A stretch of DNA of 63,896 nucleotides, the filler included, from Chrysochromulina tobinii (taxonomy: Eukaryota), in NCBI GenBank assembly GCA_001275005.1. It is 9 parts of 9 records of this genome, joined end to end, with 100 filler letters (N's around TTAATTAATTAA, not from the genome) between each part and the next. Parts side by side here need not be neighbours in the genome. Positions count along the whole stretch, not along the records: positions 2,498 to 17,777 come from JWZX01001225.1; 8 more parts are not named here. One strand, written 5' to 3'. The notes below the pieces were generated by a model. That model saw only the letters and a list, made by a program, of their open reading frames with translations. It was not told the origin of the DNA and made no database searches. The position numbers and the translations under genes are program-made. Shown piece after piece: positions 221-61,054 of the stretch. How positions within the stretch are numbered: position 1 is the first letter of the stretch; every line of letters begins with the position of its first letter.

Positions 221-778
221 GGAGCCTAAACACAGGTAGTGCGGCGTTACGCGGCGGGTTTAGGGTTAGGGTTAGGAGGGTATATTATTTTTTTGGTTAG
301 TAAAAACGTACGGAACCACGAGTTAGGCTGGAGCCTAACCACGAGTTAGGCGGGAGCCTAACCACAGGTAGTGCGGCGCTACGCGGCGGGTTTAGGGTTA
401 GGGTTAGGAGGGTATATTATTATTATGGTTAGTAAAAACGTACGGAACCACAGGCGGGAGCCTAACCACGAGTTAGGCGGGAGCCAAACCACGAGTTAGG
501 CGGGAGCCTAACCACAGGTAGTGCGGCGCTACGCGGCGGGTTTAGGGTTAGGGTTAGGAGGGGGGTTTATTTTAATTATGGTTAGTAAAAACGTACGGAA
601 CCACGAGTTAGGCTGGAGCCTAACCACGAGTTAGGCGGGAGCCTAACCACAGGTAGTGCGGCGCTACGCGGCGGGTTTTGGGTTAGGGTTAGGGTTAGGG
701 TTAGGGTTAGGGTTAGGGTTAGGGTTAGGGTTAGCGGGTTTAGGGTTAGGGTTAGGGTTAGGGTTAGGGTTAGGGTTG
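221..778 (+). repeat. Subtelomeric-type tandem array (units of ~132, 150 and 135 nt, each with short TTAGGG runs) ending in a ~100-nt (TTAGGG)n tract
   Basis: Units start GGAGCCTAA(A/C)CACAGGTAGT at 221, 353, 503 and 638 and contain internal AACCACGAGTTAGGC(G/T)GGAGCCT subrepeats. A near-pure TTAGGG tract runs ~673-778, followed by poly-G. Confidence 0.95.
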
Positions 779-1442
779 AGTTAATGGCGGGGGGGGGGGG
801 GAGGGGGGGGCAACCTTGCAGCCACGAAGCGCGTGGTGTTGCGGGGCGCAGCAACCTCCACGTCAGCGGGGCAGTGGCCCTCTCGTACTTTTATGATTTG
901 CTCGCCGTCGGTGTACCATCGGTGTGCGCGTCGTGTTGCACAATATGGTAGTTTGTGTGCGACCAGATCAAGGAAGAGCTCATCAACTTGCTCATTCATT
1001 CGGATCGTAATACTACGACCTGACCGCCCTGGCCGAGCATCAGGCGGCTGTGGCGGCAAAGAAGATGGCTGCTTTAGAGGCCGCCAAGCCAGCAACAGGC
1101 AAGGCGCGCAAGACGGTTTACTAGGCGGTGGTTGCGGCCATGAGCAAGCAGGCTGCGTAATTCCTAAGCACAGGTAACGTGATCGATGATCGGTGCTATA
1201 CCTCAGACGTGGCGGTTGAATCGTGTGGCTCAGTGTAGTAGCTTTAGCCAGCAGCACGGGCTAATGTATGGACAACCTTAGTCACACAAATCGGGTAGCG
1301 AGCATACCCTCGGATGGCAAGAGTTCCTACGGGATCTCCTCAATAAAGCACTTTGCCTTCACATAGCCCGCTCCCCCTGCACCGTGCGCACGCACTGCTC
1401 ATCCCAGCAGAGCCGTGGCCACTGCCGCCGTCGTCCTCGTCG

Positions 1443-11279: not shown

Positions 11280-11511
11280 GCTGCCTCTGATGGCCTCTGA
11301 GTGCCTCTTGGCCTCTGAGTGCCTCTGAGTGCCTCTGAGTGCCTCTGAGTGCCTCTTGGCCTCTGAGTGCCTCTGAGTGCCTCTGAGTGCCTCTTGGCCT
11401 CTGAGTGCCTCTGAGTGCCTCTGAGTGCCTCTGAGTGCCTCTGAGTGCCTCTGAGTGCCTCTGAGTGCCTCTGAGTGCCACTGAGCTTGTCACTGAGCTC
11501 GTTACTACCAG
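11280..11511 (+). repeat. Predicted intron made of (GCCTCTGAGT)n decamers
   Basis: ~190 nt of tandem decamers with GCCTCTTG variants. Probable GC donor near 11280; acceptor TACCAG at 11511. Confidence 0.8.
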
Positions 11512-12020
11512 ATCGACTACGCCACGGGCTATCTGGGAGCCTATGCTGTCCTCTTGGGGCTCATCGAGCGCCAAGCCGCGGCACTTGAAGGCAAGGCAAC
11601 GGCCGGCGTGCTCCTGCACACCTCCCTCTGTCAATCGGCGACGTGGATGGCGACGCTGGGGGCCGTGGCTCCTGGGCGCTTCGATTGGATCTGCCGCGTC
11701 ACACGTCTCATGTGGCTCTCGGACCGCCGGTCGGACACCATCAACGACCTCACTTACCTGCCGCCGAGCGTCGCAGGTGATGATGATGAGTGATGATGAT
11801 GAGCCCGGATGGCCACTGATCGCCACTGATCGCCACTGATCGCCACTGATGGCCACCGAGTACCACCGAGTGCCACTGATGGCCACTGACTGCCAGTGAT
11901 TGTTTTTCGAATGTCGCAGTGCGCATGTCCATCACTCCGCCTAAGCGGCATGGGTTTGAGCGATGGTGGCCTGACGATGCGCCCACCGATGATTTGGTCG
12001 TGGCGCCGCCCAAAAAGTGA
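11512..12020 (+). CDS. CoA-transferase family III (CaiB/BaiF)-like C-terminal exons, join(11512..11776,11920..12020)
   Basis: IDYATGYLGAYAVLLGLIERQ...SLCQSATWM and, after splicing, VRMSITPP. GT-AG intron 11777..11919 is filled with GCCACTGAT(C/G) units. Confidence 0.6.
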
Positions 12021-12311: not shown

Positions 12312-12553
12312 CGAGCTCACACCGCACACATACCGGGGTCGGTCGTGGGTGCGGAACAGCGTATATTATTTTAAGTAACGGAACCTGGTCGGGTGCTGTT
12401 CCCTGCTCGTCGAGGGTCATGTTCATGGTCGTCTGTCACAAGTCTGTGAGGATGAGGGACGCACCCGACCTCACGACACCGCGCACGCTCAGAACCGCGC
12501 CCTCCTGCAGCATTCTCTCAAGGTCAAGCAATCACCATCGCGATCGCCATCGC
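12312..12553 (+). repeat. ~240-bp direct repeat, copy 1
   Basis: Matches 13834..14076. The 3' ~140 nt are nearly identical; the 5' part is diverged. Confidence 0.92.
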
Positions 12554-13833: not shown

Positions 13834-14076
13834 CGAGCTCACACCGCACACATACCGTACCGGGGTCGGTCGCCGCGGGTGCGGAACAGTGCTGCAGTAT
13901 AAGTAACCGGAACCTGGTGCGCTGCTGCACACTAGAGGGTCATGTTCATGGTCGTCTGTCACAAGTCTGTTAGGATGAGGGACGCACCCGACCTCACGAC
14001 ACCGCGCACGCTCAGAACCGCGCCCTCCTGCAGCATTCTCTCAAGGTCAAGCAATCACCATCGGGATCGCCATCGC
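13834..14076 (+). repeat. ~240-bp direct repeat, copy 2
   Basis: Matches 12312..12553. Confidence 0.92.
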
Positions 14077-14119
14077 TAGATCTCACCCAGATCTCACCCT
14101 GATCTCCCTCAGATCTCCC

Positions 14120-17100
14120 TCAGATCTCCCAGACTTGCTTCGCCGGCAGGTCCGTCTCGATGCCCGGCTGTAACGGCTGTAACGGCTGTAACGGCAGGTC
14201 CGTCTCGACGCCCGGCTGTAACGGCTGCGAAAAGGCTCCCGAATAGCCTGGCGTGCGCAAAGGCGGCACCGGCTCTGGAGCTTCGGCCAAGTCCATGGCC
14301 TTCCGCGCACGCCGGCTGGCGCAGCAGCTGTCGAGCGGCGTTCCCTCGGACTCGAACGCACTCGTGAGCCACGAGAACGGGTGCGCGTGGTTCGTTGTGA
14401 TGAGCGCCTTCTCGTGCCCGTTGGCGTGCCCGTTGGCGCGCCCATTGGTCGCGTTGAGGGGGGCTGAGGGCCTCTCACCACCCGCGACGACGGCGCGCGC
14501 CTGATGAGGGTAGCAATCAGAGGCACTCAGAGACCATCAGAGCTCATCAGAGGCCATCAGAGCCCATCAAGAGGCCGCGTCTCTGTCAGGCCTCGCCCGC
14601 AACGGCGCGCTTGCCTCTTGGAGCCTCTGCTCGACAGCGCTCTTATCAGCGTCGGAGAGGAAGTAGGGATGCTCGAGCGCCGCGTCGAGCAGCCGTTGAT
14701 ACTCTTCCACAGCCGCGCTCGGCTGGCCTAGCAGCAGCAGCATTTTGGTCGAGAGGATGGCAGGGCCGGAGCGTCCGCACAACTCAAAGGCTTCAAGAAA
14801 GTGGGCGCGTGCCACAGCGTACTCGCCACGGTCGCAGGCCTGCACACAGGCAGTGTACCGACCCTAGCGCTCAGCTGCCATCATGCGCAATCAGCTGTCC
14901 TCTCAGTCGCAATTAAGTCGCAATCAGTGCACCATCAGGGGCTCCTCACGGTCACCTGCTGGCCCGCCTTGAGTGCACTCACGTACGCCTTGGCCGCCCT
15001 CGCTCGCATGAGAGCCTGGATCTTCTTGCTCGCCTCGTCCTTCGCGGGGGGGGCAGCCTTGGGGGCAGCGTTGAGATTGGGGGAGATGAGATTGGAGGAG
15101 ATGATGAGCTCCTCGAGCGGTGCGCCCACGACGGCGCGCGCCACCTGCCCCCCTTGCTCCTCGGCGATCTCATCGAGGAGATCATCCTCGATGGCGTCCT
15201 GCAATCAACCGCAATCAGTGGTACTCAGCGGTACTCAGCGGGGGCAGCCCTAGCCACCCGGCCGCAATCATAGGCGATCAGGCGTCATCGCAACGGCCAT
15301 GCTCACCTGCTTCGCCCGGTGCATCCCAAGCACCTCCCCCTCTGGCACGGGCTCTGCCGCAAGGGAGATGAGCTGCACCGACCAGCGCGCTTCCTTATTT
15401 GGCAAGGGGGCGCTCGCATTGTCGGCATGAGGGTGCGTGCCCATGCCCTCGGTCTCGCGTACGCGCAACGGGCGCTGGGCTATCGCCCGATAAGGAGTGA
15501 TCATGCACAACTCGGCCGCCTCCCTCTGCTTGGTGGCTAGCAGCTTCTGAGCGCGGTCCGAGAGACCCACGAGGTGCTGCACGGCGGATGGCAAGAAAGG
15601 CCTCAGTATTGTCGTAGCCATCCGTAGCCACCCAAACGGCCATCGGTCGCCACCGAAAAGGCCATCCGTAGCCATCAATCATAATCATAATCAAACATAC
15701 ATCAGCCGCAATCAGTGCCTGTCGCACCTGTGCGAGGTACGCATATTCCGCCGCCGCCGCATGCGCCTCGCCAAGCTTGAGACTCATGTTCGCAGCCGAC
15801 AGCCGAGCCTCGAGGTGGCCCCTGAGCGCATACCTGATGAGGGATGCACTCAGAGCTCATCAGTGCCCATCAAAGCTCATCAGAGACCATCAGAGACCAT
15901 CAGGCAGCCGAGCTTTGAGGTGGCCCATGGGCGCCGTGCTGAGCGCATACACAGCGAGGAAGAGCTCGCGCGCTTCCTGGAAACTTCCGCACGTGTTCGC
16001 GCTGTTGGCGCGCTTGAGCGTGGTTTGGTAATGCTCGTTCTCTTCCTTGAGGCCCTGCGCGCGCGTATACATGGTCGCCATATGGCACCATCAGTGCCCA
16101 TCATTCGCAATCAGTGGCACTCCATGGCACACCCAGTCGCGCGCAGAGGCTTGCTCACCTGCTTACGCGCCACGTAACCTTGTGCTGAATGGCAATCAAA
16201 GGTCGTCATCAGGGGCCATCCGAAGGCCATCCGAGGCCATCATGCTCACCTTCTCGCGCGCCACGTGGCCTTGTGCTGGCAATCAATGGCAATCAATGGC
16301 AATCAATGGCAATCACCTTCTCGCGCGCCACGTGGCCTTGTAAGTACGTCTGCAAGCGCACCGACGTCGCGTCCCGAGCGGCCGCGTACCTGATGAGGGA
16401 GGCCATCAGGGCGTACATCAGAGCGCACATCAAAGGTCGTCATCAGAGGCGATGAAGGCTATGGGCGGTCTCGATCGGTCGCGTACTCGGAGGTGTGAGG
16501 CTTCGCGGCGAGTTGCGCCTGCTGCGCCTTGGCGAGCTTCATCTCCACATGAGTGAGCAGCTTCAACTCCGATTCGGAGACGCCTGTCACGGCGCCGCTC
16601 TCAAACGACCTCATCAGCACCTCGTACTCGTCGTGCGCCTCCTGTGAACACGACCCAAATATGGACGACCAGCAGAGGCCATCAGAAGCAATCAAAGGCC
16701 ATCAGAAGCCAGCAAGCAGTGGCCATCAGAAGCCCTCCGTGGGCATCAGACGTCATCAGAGGTCATCATAGGTCATCATAGGTCTTCAGAGGGCATCAGA
16801 GGTTATCAGGGGTCATCAGAGGGCATCAGAGGTCATCAGAGGGCATCAGAGGTCATCACAGGTCATCAGTGGCCCTCCGTGGGCTTCAGTGGCCCTCGCA
16901 CCTGCGCACGCCCGAGCTTGAGCGACATGTTGGCCGCCGAGAGTGCCGCGTACGGCTGGCCCGAGAGCTCATAGCACTGCAGGAAGAGAATGCGTGCAGC
17001 CGCGGGGTGACCTGCTTGATTCTCAGCCATCCCGGCGGCCATGAGCTGGGCGTACGTCATGGATCCAGCGACACCCATGACGGCGCCATGAGCGGCGCGA

Positions 17101-17777
17101 GCCACCTTGTCGTGGCAGAGCACAGGCCCGCGATCGTGACAGGGGAGCTGAAGGGGCTCCTCCTCGTGAGCGACCGGCACGGCGCTCTTCACACTCAGCC
17201 CATCACGGCGCTCGGTGCTCCGCTCGGGGCCCGCCACGACGCTCGGCTCGGCGGTGCCGAGCCGTTTGGACGCCTCCGACGGCGCACGGGCTTCGGGACG
17301 TGACGACGAGCTTGCCTCCGTGATTCCCTCCGAGCTTCCCATCGAGATTCCATCCGAGACCCTCTCCGAGACCCCCTCCGTGCTTTTCTCCGAGATCCCC
17401 TCCGTGCTTTTCTCCGAGACCCCCTCCGTGCTTTTCTCCGAGACCCCCTCCGTGCTTTTCTCCGAGACCCCCTCCGAGATTCCCTCCGAGATCCCCTCCG
17501 ACGGCCCGCGGGAGTCGGGGCGTGACGCCGAATGCGAGGGCTGTTTCGGTGGTGGCTTTGGGAAGGCTCGGGCGATCGAACGCACGAGGGTTTCGTCTTC
17601 GGCTGTCGTGGTCGCGGTCGCTTTTGTTGCTTTTGTTGCGGTCGTCACAGTGGCGGCGGCGGCGGCTGTGGCTGTAGCGGCGGTGGTGGCTGTAGCGGCG
17701 GCGGCGGCTGTAGCGGCGGTGGTGGCTGTGGCTGTAGCGGCGGTGGTGGAGGCGGCAGGGGGAAGGGGCGGGGGCGA
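14120..17777 (-). CDS. TPR-like repeat + IQ-motif protein, 5'-partial, 8 predicted repeat-filled introns
   Basis: Removing introns 16642..16901, 16390..16486, 16055..16316, 15834..15950, 15577..15727, 15199..15306, ~14864..14955 and 14501..14614 gives one frame. It encodes three TPR-like pairs (ARxLFLxxYEL...LSAANMSLKLG) and IQ-like motifs (VRLQTYLQGHVARE, KIQALMRARAAK). Confidence 0.75.
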
Positions 17778-25306: not shown

Positions 25307-28300
25307 CTACAGCATCAAGTCAAATCCACTCCGGTCCTTCACCGCATCTCGCACCGCTTTTTTCCCTGCATCTCCCATGTCATCATTGGCCCGGATGTCC
25401 AGTTTGGTCAGGACCGCGTTGACCTTCAGCGCCTCCGCGATCGCCTTGGCACCGTCAACGCCGATGTTGTTGCGGTACAACTCGAGCTTGGTCAGGACCG
25501 CGTTGACCTTCAGCGCCTCCGCGATCGCCTTGGCACCCTCGATCCCGATGTTGTTGTCGTCCAAGTCCAAGCCGGTCAAGACCGCGTTGACCTTCAACGC
25601 CTCCGCGATCGCGATGGCACCCTCTGGTCCGATGTTGTTGCTGTTCAGGCCCAGGGTGGTCATGACCGCGTTGACCTTCAGCGCCTCGGCGATCGCGATG
25701 GCACCCTCCGGACCGATGTTGTTGTTGCTGAGCCATAGCTTGGTCACGACCGCGTTGACCTTCAGTGCCTCCGCGATCGCCTTGGCACCCTCATCCCCGA
25801 TGCTGTTGTTCGGGAGGAAGAGGATGGTCACCACCGCGTTGACCTTCAGCGCCTCCGCGATCGCCTTGGCACCATCGTCGCCAATGGAGTTGCGCCTCAA
25901 CTCCAGGTCGGTCAGGACCGCGTTGACCTTCAGCGCCTCCGCGATCGCCTGAGCACCCTCGTCCCCGATCTTGTTCTCGTACAGGCCCAGGGTGGTCACG
26001 ACCGCGTTGACCTTGAGCGCCTCCGCGATCGCGATGGCACCCTCAACCCCGATCTTGTTGCCTTCGAGGTTGAGGGTGGTCATCACCGCGTTGACCTTCA
26101 GCGCCTCCGCGATCGCCTTGGCACCCTCATCCTCGATGTTGTTGACGGTGAGGTAGAGGGTGGTCACCACCGCGTTGACCTTCAGTGCCTCCGCGATCGC
26201 CTTGGCACCCTCATCCCCGATGCTGTTGTTCGAGAGGACGAGGGTGGTCACCACCGCGTTGACCTTCAGCGCCTCCGCGATCGCCTTGGCACCCTCGTCG
26301 CCGATCTCGTTGCCGCCGAGCTCGAGCTCGGTCACCACCGCCATGAACTGCAGGTCCGACCCGATCAGGATGGCGTCGGCGGGTTGAAGCCTCTGGCTAT
26401 CCAACTTGGGTTGAAGCCTCTGGCTATCCAACTTGGCCTCCGTCTGGTCGCGCCTCATGCCCGAGAGCATGATGCCCTTCTCCGCGCCGATCTTGGCGAG
26501 CATCGTGGCCGACTCAACATCCAGGCTGTTCTTGAGCAGGCTGCAGTTCTTCAGCGCCGTGGTCTTCAACAAAGCAGGGGCAAGCGCTCGAGCATCCTCT
26601 GCATCGAGCTTGTTCTGGCTCAGGTCGAGCGTCCTCAGCTCGCTGGCATTGGCGACCACAGCCGCCAGCACACGCCGCACCGTCGGCCGGTCGCCGCCGA
26701 GCTTCCGCGAGAGGTCGAGCGTGTCGCCCGTCACCCCGGCCGCGCGCAGCAGCCCACGACCGAAGCGGTCGCCCGGAATCTCGGCGCCGAGCTTCACCGT
26801 GTTCGCCCACCACGCGGGCCACTGCCACGGCGGCGTGCCCGAGAGCTCGATGCCCTCGTCGCAGAGCGCGATCGCAGCAAAGTACTCCTGGAACGAGAGG
26901 TGTGACGACTGCAGCTGCAGCGGCTCGGACTGCCACAGGCTGAGCAGTGGCAGCGCGTCGACGAGCACGCGCTCGCGCACCGTGCGCAGCGCCTCGCGCA
27001 GCGCCACCGACAGGCGCGCCTCGCACGCCACGCGCACGGCGGCCTCGCTCGCGCTTGCATCCATCGCACGCTGGAGGAAGGCCGTCTCATTCAGGCCCGA
27101 GGAGCGCAGGGAGGAGGGATGGAGCCATTGGCTCATCGTGTGGTCAGCAAAGGTGACCCTGTACGGTCTTGCGATCGCGTAAGCATGCTCGCTACAAATC
27201 TCGCATTGACATTCCATGCAGTCGTAGCTGTCGGTCTCATCGTCGGCCGTGATCACGCCGCGCCTGCCCTCGTGCTCACACTGCTCCTCCAAAGTGGCCG
27301 TCACCTCAACGTAGTGACCGATCGCGGCGCGGCCCCCAAAGGGCTTGAAGGCCATCTTCGCCACCGCCTCGGCCCGAATCTGTGCGAGCGCCTCGGGCGC
27401 CTCCAGGCCGAGCGCCGCCTCGTCCAGCTGCCGGTCCTCAATGAGGCGGCGCTGCGCGACGTGCGCCTCAAAAAAGATGGCGCTGCGCGACGTGCGCCTC
27501 AAAAAAGATGCGCTGCAGCAGCCGCGCGAGCTCAGGCGACGTGACGCCTCCGCGCGCGAGCATCGCGTCGGACGCGGTCGCGTACAGCTCGGCGACCGTC
27601 CGGGGCATGCCCATGCCCTGCCGCAGCTCGTACACGGCAGCGACCATCGAGAGCATCAGCGGGTTGCTCGTCACCTTCTGGCCTGTGTCGTCGCGCGGCA
27701 TCACGTCGCGCACGTACGTCAGCAGCGCGGCCGCGCGCTCCGCGCCGAGGCGCTGCTCGAGCGCGCGCTCCTGCTGCTCGTCCGAGAGCGGAGCGAGCGA
27801 GAGGCGGCGGAAGGCGGCAAAGCGCGCCTCGTCGATGCCCGCCGGTCGCGAGGTGCAGAGCAGCACGTGGCCCTGCGGCGCGAGCACGTCGACCACGTGG
27901 CGCTCAATGTCGTCGCGCTTGGCGCCGGCCTCGTCGAGCCCGTCGAGGAGGAGCAGCGCGCGCCGCGCCATCATCGCCTGACGCAGCATGCGGTAGAGCG
28001 CGGGGCGGCTCGCCTCGTGCTCGAGGCGCAGGAAGGCATCCATGTAGTTCCACGCGCCCGCAAAGGCGTCGGGCGCCTCGAGCAGCCGCCGCTGCAAGAC
28101 CTGCACCTTGACCAGGATGGGCACGAGCTCCGTGCGCTCGTCTTGGAGCGCGACCATCACCACCTGCGACAGCAGCGTCGTCTTGCCGTTCGCGGGGCCG
28201 GCGGTGAGCAGCACCGCGAGTGGACCCTCTGTTGGGCCGCCCTCGAGCCGCGCGCCGTGCTGCGCAAGCAACCATGCGGTCAGGCTGTGCGCGTCGCGGA

Positions 28301-34410: not shown

Positions 34411-37400
34411 ATGCCCAGGCGCGTAGATCTCTGTGGCACCTATGGCTGCACCTTGCCAAATAATCATCGCGGCCTCCACCAATTCCCCCAAGACGAAAGC
34501 CGACGCAAACGCTCCAAGCCAGACTCGTCGTCGCAACCGACGGGGCGCGAGAGCATCAAGTTTGATCGCGAGCCCGATCCCACGTCTACCTCCGAGCCTG
34601 GACCCGTCCCCGATGGCGAGCCGGATGGTGAGCCCGATGGCGAAATCGATGGCGATTGCACTGGCGACGACGTCGAAGACGAGGACGAGGACGACGTTGA
34701 AGACGATGACGACGTTGAGGACGAGGACAACGAGGAGGACGCAGAGGAAGGCGAGGAAGCGATGGATCAGCCAGAGCAAGACGACGAGGAGGAGGAGGGG
34801 GAAGCAGACGATCCGGATCCGATCGGAGCGGGCGGTCGGGCATCCTCAAGGGCCCCCTTCGACAAGAGTCGGCAGCGCCCGTGCAAGAAGACGCCGTACT
34901 GTTCGCGCTGGCACAACCACCCGGGCTTATGCAAGACGCCGCAGCAGTGCGAGAAGCATCCCAAATGCTGGCGGCCGTTCAAGCATCAGGGCAAATGCAT
35001 GATCCCCGCGCCGTGCCTCAAGGACCCGCGCTGCGCGCGCGCCCAGGGCCACTCGGGCATCTGCCGCATGGTCAAGCTCCCCGGCTTTGACGATGCTCTG
35101 CCGGTGAGTCGCAAGGAGTACAAGGGGGCAAGGGTGGAGTTCAAGGGGGCAAGGGTGGAGCTCAAGGGGGCAAGGGTGGAGTTCAAGGGGGCAAGGGCCG
35201 TGCCCAAGCTGTCCAGACCGACAGCCGCCCGATCCGCGGAGGCGGCGGCCGCCGCGGAGGCGGCGGCGGCGGTCTCGTCAAGTCGGGGCCGCGCCGCCAT
35301 CCAGGCCGCGCTCGAGTTCGTGCCCGGACCCATGCCCGAGGGCGACGGGACCGAGGCCGATCAGGCGCAGCTGGCCCACATCAACCCGTATCGGTGCACG
35401 CGCCACCACCTGTGCGTACGCGGGCGCAAGCACCCGGGCCTGTGCAAGATGCTCGACGCCTACGCGCCCGTCATCGACCGCATCCTTGGCAAGGCCAGCA
35501 CGACCATCTACTTGCAGGGTCGCCCCGTCTCGCAGCAAGTGTACCTCGTGCAGCACGAGGGTCGCTCGCGCGCCCAGGCGATTTGGGAGCCTGCCACTCG
35601 TATCCTCGACGACCTCGCGTTCCAGGCCTTCGAAAATGAGATCGAGCCGGTGCGCCGCTTTGCCCGACCGTCCGACACGGCCGGCGACGACGCGAGAGAG
35701 GAGCCGAGCGGTGCGGCCAACGATCCCGCGAATGGCGTCATCCTGCCCGCGCGCAAGGGCGAGGCGAATGAGCCGACTCCGCCGCCGCCGCTGGCCAGTC
35801 GCAAGAGTCGCGCTGGAGTGTCTGCGGAAGGTGAGGGGGAGGTTGGTGAGGAGGAGGGCGAGGACGACGTCGGGGAGGAGGACGAGGACGACTCGCGCAA
35901 TGTGTACGACTCGGAGGGGCGGCGGCTCTGCAACACCTTTGGGTGCACGCTGCTCAACAACCACTTTGGGCTGCACAAGCTGCCCTCCGTCGAGAACAAC
36001 GAAGGGCGACAGAAGCGCCAGTCGTCGCAGATCAACTTTAGGAAGCTCGCGTCCAAGGGGCTCGAGCGCGCGGAGATCGGGCAAGGGCGGCAGCTCGGCA
36101 AGCCCGACGCGGTCCTCGAGAGAATGCGAGAGAAGAAGAAGGCGATGCGCCTCCCAGAGCCCGAGCCGCTGCTCCGCCCGCACGAGGGCATCTCCGCGCT
36201 GCTCGCAGGCGAAGACCTCGCCGAGCTCGAGGACGACGCCGACGCCGATGCCGACGCCGACGAGGAAGTGTGGTCCGCGGGCCAAAAGATCAAGCGGCAC
36301 AAGAGTGAGACGGACGGCGGCGAGGCTGGCGGCGGTGGCTCCATTCGCTCGCGGCCCAACCACAAGTTTGGCATTGGCTCGCGCGTGCGGTACCTGCGCC
36401 CGGGCTCGGCGCAGGGGTGTGGCGGCACCATCGTCGACGCCAAGTGCGGCTACTGGGTCGTCTCGATCGACGGCGGGCCGCGCGCGCCCGTGTACGCGCG
36501 CGCCTCGATGCTCGAATCGCTCGAGGGTGGTGAGGTGGCGCCCGCCGGGAGTGCCCGTGACAGCGCGCTCTACTCGTCGCAGGCCCAGGGCGCCGTCTCG
36601 GGCGCGATGGTTGGGCTGAGTGCGCGGGCGGCATCGAAGCAGCGGGAGGACATGGGCGCCGAGGACATGGGCGGCGACGGTAGCTTCAGCTGCGGCTACT
36701 GCGGGCGCAAGCTCGCCAACGCAGGCTCGCACGCCAACCACGAGCGCGCGTGCGCCGCTGCGCTGCAGCTCAAGGTCTATCCGAACCCAAACCGACTGAT
36801 TGCATGCTGATGGCCACTCATGCTGAGCCCTGATGACTTCCCTCATCAGGTCTATCCGGACGATTCCGCGCAGAGGCGCAACCCAGGCGCGGACAGCCAG
36901 TGCCGTCGCAACCCGCTGTGCGTGCGTGGGCTGCGCCACCGGGGGCTGGGCGGCCCGTGCCGGCTCAGCGGCGAGCCGGGGGTGCTTCCCAAGCGGCCGA
37001 GCGGCAAGCAGAAGCTCAAAGGACGGAAGCCCGGCAGCCGCAGCGGCCCCTCGGGCCGCAGTGGGCGGCGCAAGCCCAAGCACGATGTGGAGGTGGACGA
37101 TGAGGAGGAGGGAGAGGAGGAGGAGGAGGAGGAGACCCCCTATGAGGGCGGCGGCGGCGGCGGCGGCGGCGGCTCCTCTCGCGCGGGCGGCGGCGATGGG
37201 CAGCGCGCTCGCCCGACCTCAACTCGCCAGATCAAGAAGACGACCATCCCGGGGCGGGTGGGGCACGCGATTGTGGGGCGTACCATCGAGGTCTTCTGGC
37301 AGGCGGACGGATGGCAGGAGGGGCGTGTACTCAGCTACAACCCGGCGACGGGCAAGCACACTGTCGAGTACACGCACCAGGGAGCCATAGAGCAGCTGAC

Positions 37401-39888: not shown

Positions 39889-42802
39889 TCACCCGACCGC
39901 ACCGCCGGCAAGCGAAGCGACCGTGCATGCGCCTGCGCTGGTGTCGAAGCTGAGCCCGTGGAAGGTCGGCACGCAGCCGGCTGAGATCTCAAAGTGCGGC
40001 TGCAGCTTCTCCCAGAGCTTCTTTTTTGGCGGGAGCACGTCGAGTGGCTCGCCGCTGACGCCCGCAAAGGCAATGCGCTCGCCCACCGCCGCACCGGCCG
40101 GCGGGTCGATGATCTCGATCTTGCTACATGGCTCGTCGCGGGCCTTGCCGCAGAGCACCATCGCCTGCGACTCTACGTTCTTGAGCTTCGAAGGCTTCAG
40201 GTTGCACAGCACGATGACCTTGCGGTTCCGCATCTGCTCAATGGGCACGTGCTTGACGAGCCCGGACACGACTGTCCGCGGCGCGCCCTCGCCCAGGTCG
40301 ATCTGCTCCACGTACAAGCCATCCGCCTCAGGGTGGCGCTCCACAGCCACGATCAGGCCGACGCGGATATCCAAGATGGCCACGCTCGTGCCGTCCACGA
40401 TCCCAACGCCGCCACCTGCTGCAGCCTCCTCCGCAGCCTTCTCGGCGGCCGCGGCGGCGGCTTGCTTCTTGGCCGAGGCTGCCTTTTTCTTCTTCTCCTC
40501 CTCCGCTGCAGCCGCCTGCGCAGCGAGCGCACTCAGTGGCACTCAGTGGCACTCAGTGGCACTCAGTAGCACTCAGTGGCACTCAGTGGCACTCAGTGGC
40601 ATCAGTGACACTCGCCTGCGCCGCGAGCGCCTCCGCGGTGTCGACCTTGGCGTACATGATGTCGCCGACGCTCGTGAGCGTGCCGGGCTGCAGGTTGGTC
40701 AGGGTCGAGCGCAGCTGGCAGATGGGCAGCGGAGGGGTGCCGAGCATCGTGAAGACACGGCCGACGCCGTCGGTTAGGAAGGGCGCCAGGAAGTGGCACG
40801 CGACGTAGATGGCCTCGAGGGTGGTCCGCAGGATCACGAGCCGCTTGTGCGGGTCGTCCTTGATCTTCCAGGGCTCCTTGTCGGTCAGGAACTTGTTGAC
40901 CGTACTGAGCGCGCTCGTGGCGAGGCTGGCGGCAACGTCAATCTGGTAATTCTTGTACGCGGCCTCGGTGGCGGTGCGCAGCTTGTCGACGTCGAGGTCG
41001 ATCTCGCACGGCAGCTGGGAGGGGATCTTGCCATCCGTGTAGCTCTTGCACAGGTTGAGCGAGCGGTTGACGAGGTTGCCAAACGTGTCCGCGAGCTCGG
41101 CGTTGTGACGCAGCGCGAGCGCGGTCTCGTTGAAGGTGACGTCGCCGCCAAAGGTGCACTCGCGCATCAGGAAGAATCGGAACGAGTCCACAGGAAAGCG
41201 AGCGAGCACGTCGTACGGATCGACCACGTTGCCGTACGACTTGGACATCTTGCGCCCATCGGGGCCGTGGACGAAGCCGTGCGCGAGCACCGTCTTGGGC
41301 AGCGGCACCCCCGCGCACATGAGCAGCGCGGGCCAGATCACGCAGTGGAACCAGATGATGTCCTTGCCGATCAGGTGGCAGGAGGCCGGCCAAAAGTGCG
41401 CGAGTGGCGACGATCTTGAAGGATCAGGTGCGGTGGGGTCGTACCCGATGGCCGTGATGTAATTCGAGAGCGCGTCGAACCACACGTACATGACGTGGCC
41501 GGGGATGTCGCCCGGGACCGAGATGCCCCAATCGAAGGTGGTGCGCGAGACGGAGAGGTCCTTCAACGGCACCGCGAGCCTCTCGAGCACCTCGTTGCGC
41601 CGCGCCTCGGGCACGATGAAGTCCGCATGGGTCTGGATGTGCTCGATGAGCTTCTGCTGGTACTCGGACAGCTTGAAGAAGTAGGAGGGCTCCTCCATCT
41701 TCTTGAGCGGCACGCCGCTGCTCGGGTCCTTGTAGTCGTTGGCGAGCGCGTCGCTGTCGGTGACGAAGGTCTCCTCGCGCACGTTGTACCATCCCACGTA
41801 CATGCCCAGGTACACGCCGCCCTGCTGCTCGCACTTGGCCCACAGCTTGCGCGCGATCGTCTTGTGCGCGTCCGAGGTCGTGCGCACGTACCCGTCGTAC
41901 CGGCAGTTGAGCGCGTGGTCGAGCTCCTGGAACTGCGCCACGTGCTTGTTGCACAGCTCGATGGGCTGAAGCCCCTGGGCCGCCGCCGTGTCCGCAATCT
42001 TCTGGCCGTGCTCATCCGCGCCCGTGAGGAAGAAGACCTCGCGCCCATACGCGCGATGGTACCGCGCGATCACATCGGCCGCGATCGCCTCGTACGCGTG
42101 ACCCATGTGCGGCGGCCCATTGGCGTAGTTGATCGCCGTCGAGATGAAGTAGGAGCCGCATTCGGGTTTGGGCGGGAGCGGCGGGAGCGTCGCACTCTCT
42201 GCTGGCAGCGCCCCCCCCGCCGCTGACGGGGCGGCCGGTCGCGGCGGGGGCGGGGTCGCGAGTGAGGTAGCCGACGCGCTCAGGTCGCTCGCCTCAAACC
42301 AGAGGTCACGAAGGCGTGCGACGTCTGCGTCGTCCTTCGCGAGCTCGATCAGCGGATCGGCGGTCACTTTGACCACGCTCAGGTCGCCGCGGATGCTGCC
42401 GGGCAGAGCTCGCGCCGGATCATCATCGCCGACGAGGGTGCGCACCGTGCTGAGGGCGTTCGGCCCTTTCCACAGCGTCACGATCACGGGCCCAGGGGCA
42501 AGCACGGAGACGAGCTCAACAAGCTCCGATTTCGGCACGGAGCCATAGTGGTTCTTGGAGAGGTCCGCACCCGGCTTAAGCATACGCATGGCGCACAGCG
42601 TGAGGCCACGGCGCTCAAAGCGCAGGCATATCTCCGAAACGAGCGAGCCTTTGATTACCGCGGGCCGAAGCAGCACGAAGGCGATTGAGTCGCTGCAGCT
42701 GCCGCCGGTGGAGGCAAGAGCACGCGCCGGACGAGCCTGAAGCGGGTTGAGCTCCGCGAGCTTTGCGAAGGCGTTCGTCGGGCCGACTTGTGGACCGTCC
42801 AT
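39889..42802 (-). CDS. MARS: Methionyl-tRNA synthetase with N-terminal NDK-like domain and C-terminal EMAPII/Trbp-like tRNA-binding domain, join(40616..42802,39889..40515)
   Basis: HMGH (HIGH-like), TGADEHGQKI, YVWFDALSNY, GKDIIWFH, KMSKS. A 100-nt GC-AG intron joins in frame to LDIRVGLIV...HPEADGLY...RTVVSGL...NLKP...SQAM. Confidence 0.95.
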
Positions 42803-43006
42803 CTGAGGTGCCTTGACTCTCACGACAGCTTCGTCGCCGAGAGAGAGCGAGACGAGGACCACGGGGGCGCAAATTGTGTCGCGTGAATGGAGCTGTTCAC
42901 AGTCAGTGATTCAGCCTCAGTTGAACACAACCGTATCAAAGGACGGCTCCGCTCGTTTGATGCAAAGCACATATCCGAAAGCGCGCGCAGGCTAAGCCTA
43001 AGACCC

Positions 43007-59196: not shown

Positions 59197-61054
59197 ATGG
59201 AGTTTGCAAGCCGCATGGATGGTCGAATCGTCCCGGGCCGGGCCTTGAGGAGCAGCACTAGACAAGCCGATCAACACCGTGCCATTAAGGCCAGGCCACG
59301 CGCCAACGAAGTATTGCCTGGTGCCGCGGGCTCACCAGCAGGTAACCCGAGTCAATGCACCGGCCCAATCTCCGCCCTGCGCACCACGCGCATCACGACC
59401 CGTCTCCTAGTTGCGCAAGCACCAGCCGGCCCCATCAACCCCGGAGTCTCGGACACGGTCGATGCTCTGGGCACGGATGCCAACATGCAGATCGACATTG
59501 AACAGGTGCTCAAGACGGTACGCGCCCGCCTCAAGGTCATGATGCAGATGCGCATCATCAAGTGCAAGGAGCCCAAGCGGTGCCCCGAGGACTTTGGCAA
59601 GCCGCTGGACGAGCGCATCCGCGGCATGTCGATACCCGAGCTCTCTGATCTGTGCGACAGCGGTTCGGTGTTTGACCAGGAGTGGTGCAAGGCAGCAGCA
59701 CTCGGCATCTCGCGGCACAAGATGCTGGTGGAGTCGGCGCAGGTGGGGCTGCCTGCCCAACTCGCGCTCTCCGCCCTGCGCGCCGCACCAATTCTCACGC
59801 CCGTCCTTCCGCTCCGCGTGCGCAGCGCTTCCTCGACGCGCTCCCGCGTCCCCAAGCCGAGCCCGAGCCCTACGACGTGGAGGAGGTGCTCAACATGTGG
59901 CGGTGCGTGCGCGAGGACGAGGTTATGCTCGAGCACACGGAGGAGCTGCCCGAGATGGGCGGACAGCTGGATGCTCTCGAGATGCTCGAGATGCCCACGC
60001 CCGCGCCCGCGCCGCCACTCTCGCCCATGGAGCTCGTCGCGCACCTGACGACCCGGGACCTGGCCACGGGCCGCGCCGACGGTGGCTCGAACGAGGGCTC
60101 GCCCGGCTTGGACGCGACGCCTTCCATGCTCACGAGCTCGCCCGCCCTCGCGCATGGGCTCATGTACTCCCTGGGCGACTTCCTCAAGACCTTGCCGTCA
60201 TCGCTCGGCTCAGCCACGCTCGTCTATGCGTGCCTCCTGCCACCCGATGTAGAGGCGGGCGCGGGCTCGGTGGTGCTCGAGGAAGAAGAAGCGCCCGAGA
60301 GGGTGGCGTGGACTGAGGCGCAGATGGGCAAGCACCGCGCGCACTGTGTTGGCCTCCCGCTCGTCTCAGTGCAGCTCCCTGCTGCCATGCCGGCCGAGAG
60401 CGTCAGGAAGAACGACGCCCAGGTCGACACGCCCGCGACGGCGCTCCAGGTGACTGATCGCGTCTGATTTCGCGTCTCCACCTGGATGGACATGGAGGAG
60501 AACTGATGACCCTGTGGCTGCCGTCTTCGCAGCCACACATTCCGTGGAATGCGCCTGATAAGAAACCCCCTCTGATGGCCGCCCTGATGACCACCGATGG
60601 CGCCTGATGACGTGTGATTGCACCCGTGGTCAACGGATTGATGTTTGCCGCTGATGACATCTGTGATCTGATGAGTGCGTATGACGCCCCTAATTTGGGC
60701 TGATGACGAACTGATGACACCCTCCCTAATGACAGCCTCCCCTAATGACTTATTGACACCTCCCTTAACGACCTCCCCTAATGACCTCCCTAATTTGGCA
60801 GGTGAGCCTCGAATGTGAGGCCAAAGTCTCCGAGCTGCACGAGGCCAGAGCCGACCCCAAGGCCGCCCGTAGCCCCGAGCTCTACGATCTCGAGCTATCT
60901 CGCAAGCATGTGCGGGGGATGACCGCTAAAAGCCATGATTGCCTATGATGACCTATGATGGCCCCCGATGGCCTCCGATGGACGCTGACGAGATCGGAGT
61001 GCCTCTGATTGCGCCTACCCATCGCATCGGCTCACTCCCTCTATCTCCACCCCC
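59197..61054 (+). CDS. Hypothetical multi-exon protein (3'-partial)
   Basis: GT-AG introns 59743..59825 and 60450..60801 join ORFs in frame (ESAQ|RFLD; ALQ|VSLE). Another repeat intron begins ~60910. Start uncertain. Confidence 0.55.

What the first reader, a model, noticed from the sequence alone, without database searches (positions are those of the whole stretch)
14501..16901. Candidate intron-generating system: decamer-repeat introns bracketed by exon duplications
Seen: about 14 predicted introns in 6 genes on 4 contigs (11280, 11777, eight in 14501-16901, 36775, 40516, 60450, ~60910) are filled with ~10-nt tandem units (GCCTCTGAGT, GCCACTGATC, GCCACTGAGT, ACCTCTGATG, GCCATTGATT). They always read (C/T)TGA on the transcript strand, for both + and - genes. 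Many are bracketed by a copy of adjacent exon sequence. Class A: the intron start copies the downstream exon start and supplies the donor. Examples are 15834..15950 (34 nt, 2 mismatches plus a 12-nt insert), 16390..16486 (16/19 nt), 36775..36849 (AGGTCTATCCG) and 14501..14614 (degenerate). Class B: the intron end copies the upstream exon end and supplies the AG. Examples are 40516..40615 (14/15 nt) and 11777..11919 (GTCGCAG). Known: Introner transposons co-opt short TSDs as splice sites but have a fixed body and usually TIRs. Inference: variable-length duplications around a variable number of short units look like break repair or reiterative (telomerase-like or slippage) synthesis that writes splice-competent filler. 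Each unit carries a branch-point-like CTGAY/CTGAG, and the 10-nt period puts TGA in all three frames.
Basis: partly seen in the sequence, partly recalled or inferred. Interest (0 to 1): 0.92.

Follow-up and report, generated by a model that had tools for sequence, protein, structure and literature searches.

The report
Repeat-filled introns born by local duplication
In a freshwater haptophyte alga, many genes carry inserts made of a copied piece of the gene plus ten-base repeats that are cut out of the RNA and are missing from a close relative at two tested sites, so new introns are likely being made in bulk by a repair-type copying step that borrows the repeats from older introns, apparently without a classical transposon.

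Summary
The organism belongs to the Chrysochromulina tobinii group. RNA contigs join 6 of the 8 predicted introns at 14501-16901, and the MetRS intron at 40516. In 747 kb of related DNA, 491 decamer arrays lie almost all on the sense strand; about half are flanked by a duplication, against 1-1.5% in controls. Duplication length varies (10-55 nt), the filler has no fixed body, and both junctions show short in-register microhomology. A third class has both splice sites inside the duplication, and many acceptors share one end, CCCTCATCAG. A sister lineage has an empty site with one copy of the duplicated piece at 36775 and at one outside locus, which points to recent gains. Best reading: microhomology template switching copies units from existing introns, often nearby, and splice-competent products survive. 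An RNA-templated route is not excluded; no enzyme was found. Telomerase filler is unsupported. 11280 is probably a misjoin. A published introner survey scored C. tobinii zero and removed repeat-driven candidates. This scan noted one such intron before on other DNA of this genome (e1-2577349).

The parts
14501..14614 (-). GC-AG intron, class A: degenerate copy of the downstream exon start, decamer filler, end CCCTCATCAG
   Evidence: RNA joins in X11 and X12; alignment
14840..14955 (-). GT-AG decamer intron, no long flank duplication
   Evidence: RNA joins in X11 and X12
15199..15306 (-). predicted GT-AG decamer intron, no long flank duplication
   Evidence: open frame after removal; no RNA join listed
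15577..15727 (-). GT-AG decamer intron, no long flank duplication
   Evidence: RNA joins in X11 and X12
15834..15950 (-). predicted class A intron: 34-nt copy of the downstream exon start with a 12-nt insert supplies the donor; end CCCTCATCAG
   Evidence: open frame after removal; no RNA join listed, one unspliced contig in X15
16055..16316 (-). one intron that holds two further copies of the upstream exon end plus donor, separated by decamer filler: two successive duplications across an existing donor
   Evidence: single RNA join in X11; sequence; exact 29-nt duplication
16390..16486 (-). class A intron, 16/19-nt copy of the downstream exon start, end CCCTCATCAG
   Evidence: RNA joins in X11 and X15
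16642..16901 (-). GT-AG intron with about 20 decamer units, no long flank duplication
   Evidence: RNA join in X15, shorter side 29 nt
36775..36849 (+). class A intron with an exact 11-nt duplication and end CCCTCATCAG; site empty in a sister lineage
   Evidence: 5 of 6 covering ORFs of the 88%-identical cluster read through; no RNA cover
40516..40615 (-). GC-AG intron in the NDK-MetRS-tRNA-binding gene; its end copies the upstream exon end and supplies the AG; filler differs among strains
   Evidence: RNA join in X15; Pfam; ORF tails
11777..11919 (+). predicted decamer intron; the 7-nt flank repeat is too short to count as a duplication
   Evidence: not tested with RNA
11280..11511 (+). 204-nt decamer array that joins two unrelated coding regions: probable misjoin or rearrangement, not one intron
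60450..60802 (+). predicted decamer intron, no long flank duplication
   Evidence: not tested with RNA
60910..61054 (+). decamer-rich stretch cut by the contig end, probable start of an intron
14120..17774 (-). host gene (5' end cut by the contig), nine exons, open frame of 809 codons after removing the eight introns
260..777 (+). TTAGGG-type telomeric repeats, unlike the filler (control for the telomerase idea)

Best explanation
These are spliced inserts made of a 10-55-nt copy of the gene's own sequence around sense-strand decamer repeats, and they likely arise when a growing DNA end switches, through 1-5 matching bases, onto an existing decamer intron (often a nearby one), copies some units and returns upstream of where it left, with the products that would splice out exactly being the ones kept. 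Shown: the anatomy, splicing of 7 window introns, variable duplication length, microhomology at both junctions, strand bias, local similarity of fillers, and empty sites in a sister lineage. Inferred: the template switch itself, DNA as the template, the enzyme (a polymerase-theta-type or break-induced repair activity is a guess from general knowledge), and selection as the filter. A product is an exact intron if the duplication holds AG and GY (class C), starts with GY while the filler ends in AG (class A), or ends in AG while the filler opens a donor (class B). The units would supply the branch point. Each class A event rebuilds a CCCTCATCAG end followed by GY, so that end would multiply like a replicator without encoding anything. 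The same step beside an old splice site only lengthens that intron.
For: Duplications flank about half of the arrays against 1-1.5% of controls. Exact events: 98, length 10-55 nt, median 18; strict isolated set 49, length 10-40. An exact GY-AG solution exists on the decamer strand in 69/98 and 38/49, against 20/98 and 9/49 on the other strand. Microhomology in the strict set: 5' junction mean 2.28 against 1.09 (n=18 of 49 scorable; 0 of 1000 permutations reach it), 3' junction 1.54 against 0.62 (n=13; 0 of 1000). Local source: rare units are shared by 10.7% of 121 same-strand pairs within 500 nt and by 4.4-5.0% at 0.5-4 kb, against 1.9% of 54 opposite-strand pairs at 1.5-4 kb and 2.2% between loci. 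3' ends identical over 25 nt or more before different exons: 7/287 nearby same-strand pairs, 1/178 opposite-strand pairs, 215/43869 between loci. 33 of 87 stacked end pairs are pure local tandem duplications. Empty sites: window 36775, 5 of 6 covering ORFs on 5-15-kb contigs; L030:9954, 12 of 12 covering ORFs of an 86%-identical cluster read through with one copy of the 30-nt piece, 11 of them ending in the next decamer intron, while 11 of 11 covering ORFs of the other cluster stop in the filler. Removing an insert restores long frames in conserved genes.
Against: Local similarity is modest and partly pseudo-replicated (the 7 pairs come from 5 loci), the same-locus 'other distance' class scored 19/125 (it includes stacked copies under 200 nt apart), and most fillers have no visible local source. 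The shared acceptor end and variable duplications also fit reverse transcription of intron RNA. 11 of 49 strict events have no exact splice solution. About half of the arrays, and 5 of the confirmed or predicted window introns checked, have no long duplication, so their origin by this route is assumed (decay with age), not shown. Only two sites have sister-lineage empty alleles; two ORFs are mosaics of the two lineages (P0213, P0226). Loci were chosen by a class A pattern, so class frequencies are biased.
Confidence: 0.55

Rival explanations
1. RNA-templated insertion: a non-LTR-type reverse transcriptase, or transcript-templated repair, copies excised intron RNA or the gene's own pre-mRNA from a nick. 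This would give variable target duplications, a fixed 3' end at the AG and a truncated 5' end, like a tiny SINE.
For: Variable 10-55-nt duplications and 5' microhomology are typical of target-primed reverse transcription (general knowledge). The shared end stops at the acceptor: 145 of 160 ends are followed by G, and 152 of 173 ends are the same ten bases (the sample was selected for it). Sense-only orientation and same-gene similarity follow naturally if nascent RNA is the template.
Against: 261 of 447 scored arrays lack that end yet show duplications as often. The 3' junction also shows in-register microhomology. There is no poly(A) tail and no shared body, and 33 of 87 stacked units are plain local DNA duplications. 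Selection for exact splicing alone fixes the AG and GY.
Confidence: 0.25
2. Old introns remodelled: the introns pre-exist, repeats expanded in them, and duplications across their splice sites (or partial conversion by spliced mRNA) produce the brackets; the sister lineage lost them.
For: Many events straddle existing sites: the three exon-end copies at 16055-16316 and 87 stacked ends. The MetRS intron is fixed in all 23 covering ORFs, with three filler alleles. Exact loss would give the same empty site.
Against: Intronic copies are often exact over 20-40 nt while the lineages differ by 12-14% in these proteins. A 47%-identical outgroup ORF on a 16.8-kb contig also crosses the 36775 region, and relatives whose ORFs look genomic cross the MetRS position (P0152 and P0154 with an apparent intron elsewhere; P0156 from a Tara DNA scaffold). 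Class C duplications reach far into both exons in one exact copy, which one insertion explains and conversion would need two events for.
Confidence: 0.1
3. A dedicated telomerase-like enzyme with its own small RNA template writes decamers onto broken ends.
For: In-register microhomology at the 5' junction resembles primer alignment by telomerase; three units dominate.
Against: 556 distinct units, homogeneous within arrays but different between them, and similar among neighbours; the telomere repeat here is TTAGGG; a single template would not give the shared acceptor end.
Confidence: 0.07
4. A classical Introner, that is a non-autonomous DNA transposon with fixed ends and a fixed target duplication.
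For: Splice sites are co-opted from a target duplication, as in Introners of Chrysochromulina MAGs (PMC9860276 passages).
Against: Duplication length is not fixed, there is no fixed 5' end or body, no terminal inverted repeats were seen, and a terminal hairpin does not hold. C. tobinii scored 0 families (PMC12130899 dataset).
Confidence: 0.03

Closest known systems
Intron gain at staggered double-strand breaks in Daphnia pulex (PMC4202315 and PMC3443670, passages read)
   Same: New introns flanked by direct repeats of target sequence; repeated events at or in young introns; no transposon.
   Different: There the repeats are described as short and the source of most inserts is unknown and AT-rich (90 gains studied). 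Here duplications reach 55 nt, the filler is one decamer family that resembles existing introns, and the scale is probably thousands per genome (extrapolated).
Intron gain by tandem genomic duplication of an AGGT-containing exon segment (PMC3443670, passages)
   Same: Class C events take both splice sites from the duplicated piece.
   Different: Here the copies are separated by filler that adds length and a likely branch point, and classes A and B take one site from the filler side.
Introners, including Chrysochromulina MAG families with 4-bp TSD and no TIR (PMC9860276) and the 15 Polarella classes with 3-8-nt TSDs (10.1101/2020.10.14.339549, parts 1-2 of 4 read)
   Same: One or both splice sites co-opted from a target duplication, several frames of intron creation, many copies.
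   Different: Each Introner class has a fixed TSD length and fixed ends. Here neither is fixed apart from the shared acceptor end. [quoted passage not shown]
Non-LTR retroelement and SINE insertions by target-primed reverse transcription (from general knowledge)
   Same: Variable target duplications, 5' truncation, 5' microhomology, fixed 3' end in class A.
   Different: No tail, no shared body, no enzyme found, and most arrays lack the fixed end.
10-11-bp tandem repeats in Emiliania huxleyi introns (Read et al. 2013, recalled; the paper is not held)
   Same: As recalled: abundant strand-biased 10-11-bp repeats in haptophyte introns.
   Different: As recalled, described as a pattern, without duplications or a gain mechanism. 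One 5-copy E. huxleyi introner family is annotated '10bp terminal direct repeats', class unknown, and may be related.

Membership tests
Introner (DNA-transposon type) | Fixed target-site duplication length per family | tested here: not met
   10-55 nt in 98 exact events; 10-40 nt in the strict 49
Introner (DNA-transposon type) | Similarity across the whole intron with consistent boundaries | tested here: not met
   556 distinct units; only the class A 3' end is shared
Introner (DNA-transposon type) | Terminal inverted repeats or terminal hairpin | tested here: not met
   the candidate end hairpin has a mismatch in 113 of 173 ends; no TIR seen by eye
Introner (DNA-transposon type) | Splice site co-opted from the duplication, exact removal | tested here: met
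   69/98 and 38/49 exact GY-AG solutions; RNA joins
Introner (DNA-transposon type) | Empty orthologous site | tested here: met
   two sites, from protein read-through
Break-repair intron gain (Daphnia type) | Direct repeats flanking new introns above background | tested here: met
   against swapped flanks; not compared with conserved non-repeat introns, which could not be annotated
Break-repair intron gain (Daphnia type) | Presence/absence among close relatives | tested here: met
   sister lineage at 36775 and L030:9954; the MetRS site is fixed
Break-repair intron gain (Daphnia type) | Dependence on an end-joining or template-switching pathway | not testable with these tools
   needs mutants or new events
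Tandem genomic duplication gain | AG and GY both inside the duplicated exon piece | tested here: met
   10 of the strict 49; met for class C only
Tandem genomic duplication gain | Copies directly adjacent, no foreign filler | tested here: not met
   net insertion 42-276 nt against duplications of 10-55 nt
Non-LTR retroelement / SINE | Variable duplication with a fixed 3' end | tested here: inconclusive
   true for class A only; selection for splicing gives the same pattern
Non-LTR retroelement / SINE | Cognate reverse transcriptase and shared master sequence | not testable with these tools
   no genome held
Telomerase-made insertion | Filler equals the telomeric repeat | tested here: not met
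   TTAGGG at 260-777 against CTGAT-type decamers

The most novel reading that the evidence does not exclude
The decamer intron is a self-propagating replicator with no gene of its own: every intron is a template for new introns through host repair, each class A product rebuilds the same acceptor junction, and this one loop has built a large share of the introns of Chrysochromulina and perhaps explains the 10-11-bp intron repeats of other haptophytes. That would be a genome-scale route of intron gain that introner screens filter out by design.
Probability: 0.35. Interest if true: 0.92.

Novelty: new variant of a known kind. Interest (0 to 1): 0.8.

Why it matters
The source of most new spliceosomal introns is an open question, and recent surveys attribute bulk gain mainly to transposons (PMC12130899). 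Here is a culturable alga with hundreds of sampled, datable insertions whose duplication, junction microhomology, probable source and empty ancestral site can all be read from sequence. It makes repair-driven, intron-templated gain directly testable at genome scale. It also warns that repeat filters hide such introns, and that long arrays can cause misjoins and wrong gene models in haptophyte assemblies.

Tried and rejected
A terminal hairpin at the class A end was rejected: 113 of 173 ends mismatch at the next pair. Scans of viral contigs gave 1 and 0 hits; the one hit is an algal fragment on a chimeric phage contig, with a 14-nt duplication. The scan of prokaryote genomes gave 8 hits; one (L009) looks like algal contamination with the shared end and no long duplication, and the other 7 were set aside. 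L017 (chance match) and 14 redundant loci were dropped before the counts, together with L001-L008. The offset controls were high (32/160 at +40 against 76/160 anchored) because long and stacked duplications inflate them, so the masked swap test is the one relied on. The first event list (184) held within-array repeats and was filtered to 98 and then 49. All-against-all BLAST of the loci found shared insertions (L034/L071, L095/L096) but no empty allele. DNA run X9 showed no joint that skips either intron; contigs cannot show absence. Pfam found nothing for the 11280 flanks. Ten paper searches found no description of this system; the library lacks most subscription papers, including the E. huxleyi genome paper, and files 13-14 of the PMC12130899 supplement were not searched.
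Full report
Source and setting. The window is nine contigs joined by N-linkers; no whole genome was held. The MetRS gene at 39892-42900 falls in a 90% cluster that includes Chrysochromulina tobinii KOO34416.1, and a second gene from related loci matches C. tobinii KOO30774.1, so the organism is in the freshwater C. tobinii group. C. tobinii has a 59-Mb genome with about one intron per gene (PMC4580454 passages). GC donors are common in the haptophyte E. huxleyi (PMC4028052 passages), which fits the two GC-AG introns here.

Checking the observation. RNA contigs from three of the four laid freshwater metatranscriptomes skip six of the eight predicted introns at 14501-16901 exactly; no join was listed for 15199 or 15834. 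Removing all eight gives an open frame of 809 codons. One RNA contig skips 40516-40615. 36775 had no RNA cover of its junction. Wild RNA joins could be empty alleles, but the MetRS intron is present in all 23 listed ORFs that reach it from upstream (28 members listed of 72). One claimed intron fails: at 11280 the upstream protein family continues differently in the 15 relatives printed and the downstream exon has no hit among 150 relatives, so the 204-nt array probably joins two genes. The 7-nt repeat at 11777 is too short to count, and 14840, 15199, 15577, 16642 and 60450 have no long duplication.

Four window introns end in the same ten bases, CCCTCATCAG, and these are all four exact matches in the window. 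The intron at 16055-16316 holds two extra copies of the upstream exon end plus donor, so the process also acts across an existing donor.

Wider sample. A scan for two decamers plus that end returned 134 stretches from 3 of 64 parts of the metagenome collection, about 2600 estimated in all, many from repeated assemblies. In 747 kb of non-redundant DNA, window included, there are 491 arrays against 2-4 after shuffling. With decamers masked, a flanking duplication scoring 10 or more is seen in 89/186 arrays with the shared end and 131/261 without it, against 6/553 and 12/781 swapped controls. Exact duplications of non-repeat sequence number 98, are 10-55 nt long (median 18) and add 42-276 nt. A strict set of isolated events numbers 49: 19 with the acceptor end from the filler, 4 similar, 5 with the donor at the filler edge, 10 with both sites inside the duplication, 11 with no exact solution. 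Exact GY-AG removal is possible on the decamer strand in 38/49 against 9/49 on the other. Removing an insert restores long frames in recognisable conserved genes (gene names there are from my reading of motifs, not from a search). A codon model that called 9 of 10 held-out pieces correctly puts 190 sites on the sense strand and 12 on the antisense strand at a margin of 5 (309 scored, 79 with non-coding-like flanks); several of the antisense calls carry sense-type splice signals. Adjacent sites under 1 kb apart share a strand in 180 of 189 cases. The window has about 13 such arrays in 64 kb; extrapolated to 59 Mb that is of the order of ten thousand, a rough inference.

Are they gains? Gene calls on raw contigs stop inside introns and so report alleles. 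At window 36775, five ORFs of an 88%-identical cluster, on contigs of 5-15 kb, read straight through with one copy of the 11-nt piece; a sixth (P0226) is a mosaic that carries the window's filler; three do not cover the site. A 47%-identical ORF on a 16.8-kb contig also crosses the region. At L030:9954 (exact 30-nt duplication) 11 of 11 covering ORFs of one cluster stop in the filler, while 12 of 12 of an 86%-identical cluster read through and 11 of these end in the next decamer intron, so they are genomic (15 of 20 and 15 of 36 members listed; P0213 is a mosaic). At MetRS the intron is fixed with three filler alleles, while relatives whose ORFs look genomic cross the position. Exact intronic copies between lineages that differ by 12-14% in these proteins favour recent gain over loss; this direction is inferred.

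How it likely works. Both junctions are in register with the repeat. In the strict set the duplication's last bases continue the decamer phase for a mean of 2.28 nt against 1.09 in permutations, and the filler's end runs into the second copy for 1.54 against 0.62; none of 1000 permutations reached either (n=18 and 13 scorable; one search gave 2.6 against 0.5 and 1.4 against 0.35 by another measure). Fillers are not one sequence: 556 units at 373 sites. They resemble same-strand neighbours more than opposite-strand neighbours or other loci, though the effect is modest, and 33 of 87 stacked ends are plain local duplications of an intron tail plus exon start. The simplest single mechanism is a microhomology template switch during repair or replication: leave the target, copy units from an existing decamer intron, return upstream. 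Next to an old intron it lengthens that intron. Inside an exon it is tolerated only if it splices out exactly, which would explain the sense bias, the AG and GY placement and the spread of the shared acceptor end. The template switch, a DNA template, the enzyme and the role of selection are inferred. That the units act as branch points is untested; the last unit usually ends 15 nt before the shared end. Three or more 10-nt units do place TGA in all frames, by arithmetic; a role for that was not tested.

Rivals. Reverse transcription of intron RNA or nascent transcript explains class A and the strand bias well and stays at 0.25, but it must add internal priming for the majority of arrays that lack the shared end. 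Remodelling of old introns certainly happens but does not explain the empty sites and two-sided exact copies (0.10). A telomerase-like writer is unlikely: unit diversity, local similarity, and a TTAGGG telomere in the window (0.07). A classical Introner fails on duplication length and body (0.03).

Comparison with what is known. It works like the break-repair gains of Daphnia and like gain by tandem duplication (PMC4202315, PMC3443670; passages), and its splice-site co-option mirrors Introners (PMC9860276 passages and supplement rows; 10.1101/2020.10.14.339549 parts 1-2 of 4; PMC11282704 passages). It is not a member of the Introner class by fixed duplication or body. [quoted passage not shown] Variable duplications are reported for HUH elements in Chlamydomonas (PMC10288648 passages), but no such element is in evidence here. 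A preprint on 10-bp periodic Helitron minisatellites in C. elegans was seen as abstract only. I recall that the E. huxleyi genome paper reported strand-biased 10-11-bp repeats in introns; it is not held. Ten searches found no account of this system, within a library that lacks most subscription papers. This scan earlier noted one such intron elsewhere in this genome and read it as a mobile family (e1-2577349); the present work adds the other classes, the junction signature, local sources and empty sites.

Verdict. Observation confirmed with one probable misjoin. A new variant of repair- and duplication-driven intron gain, acting at genome scale, with the enzyme unknown. Interest 0.8; best mechanism 0.55; boldest reading 0.35.

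Noticed in passing
window 11280-11511: The longest decamer array joins an uncharacterised eukaryotic protein family (no Pfam hit; 364 relatives) to an unrelated coding piece: a misjoin, or a real rearrangement between two arrays.
   Followed up: partly
window 39892-42900 (-): MetRS fused to an N-terminal nucleoside diphosphate kinase domain and a C-terminal tRNA-binding domain; the NDK fusion recurs in E. huxleyi-cluster and other relatives. The public C. tobinii model P0142 has two extra residues at the intron compared with the RNA join.
   Followed up: partly
window 12412-12553 and 13935-14076: 142-nt duplication at 99% identity, 1523 nt apart, at the 3' end of the host gene.
   Followed up: no
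window 14028-14135 (-): 11-nt CTGA-containing repeats overlap the stop codon of the host gene, with a possible GC donor and CAG acceptor: perhaps a ninth intron.
   Followed up: no
window 260-810: Subtelomere-like block: TTAGGG runs interleaved with a 23-nt repeat in a 150-nt period.
   Followed up: no
L001 1-340: An IMG/VR phage contig ends in an algal fragment with two stacked class A ends: a chimeric record. L009, in a bacterial MAG, also looks like algal contamination.
   Followed up: partly
P0213 and P0226: ORFs that are mosaics of two Chrysochromulina lineages, switching next to an insertion site: assembly chimeras, or recombination that moves introns between lineages.
   Followed up: partly
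strict event set: Net insertion length modulo 3 is 21/22/6 (38/33/27 in the 98-event set): an unexplained deficit of one class in the small set.
   Followed up: no
window 25397-26341: An 84-nt coding repeat of about 11 copies that looks like leucine-rich repeats (label from my reading).
   Followed up: no
loci L046, L024, L104 and others: A second recurrent acceptor end, TTGCATGCAG (10 of 353 arrays), may spread in the same way as CCCTCATCAG.
   Followed up: no
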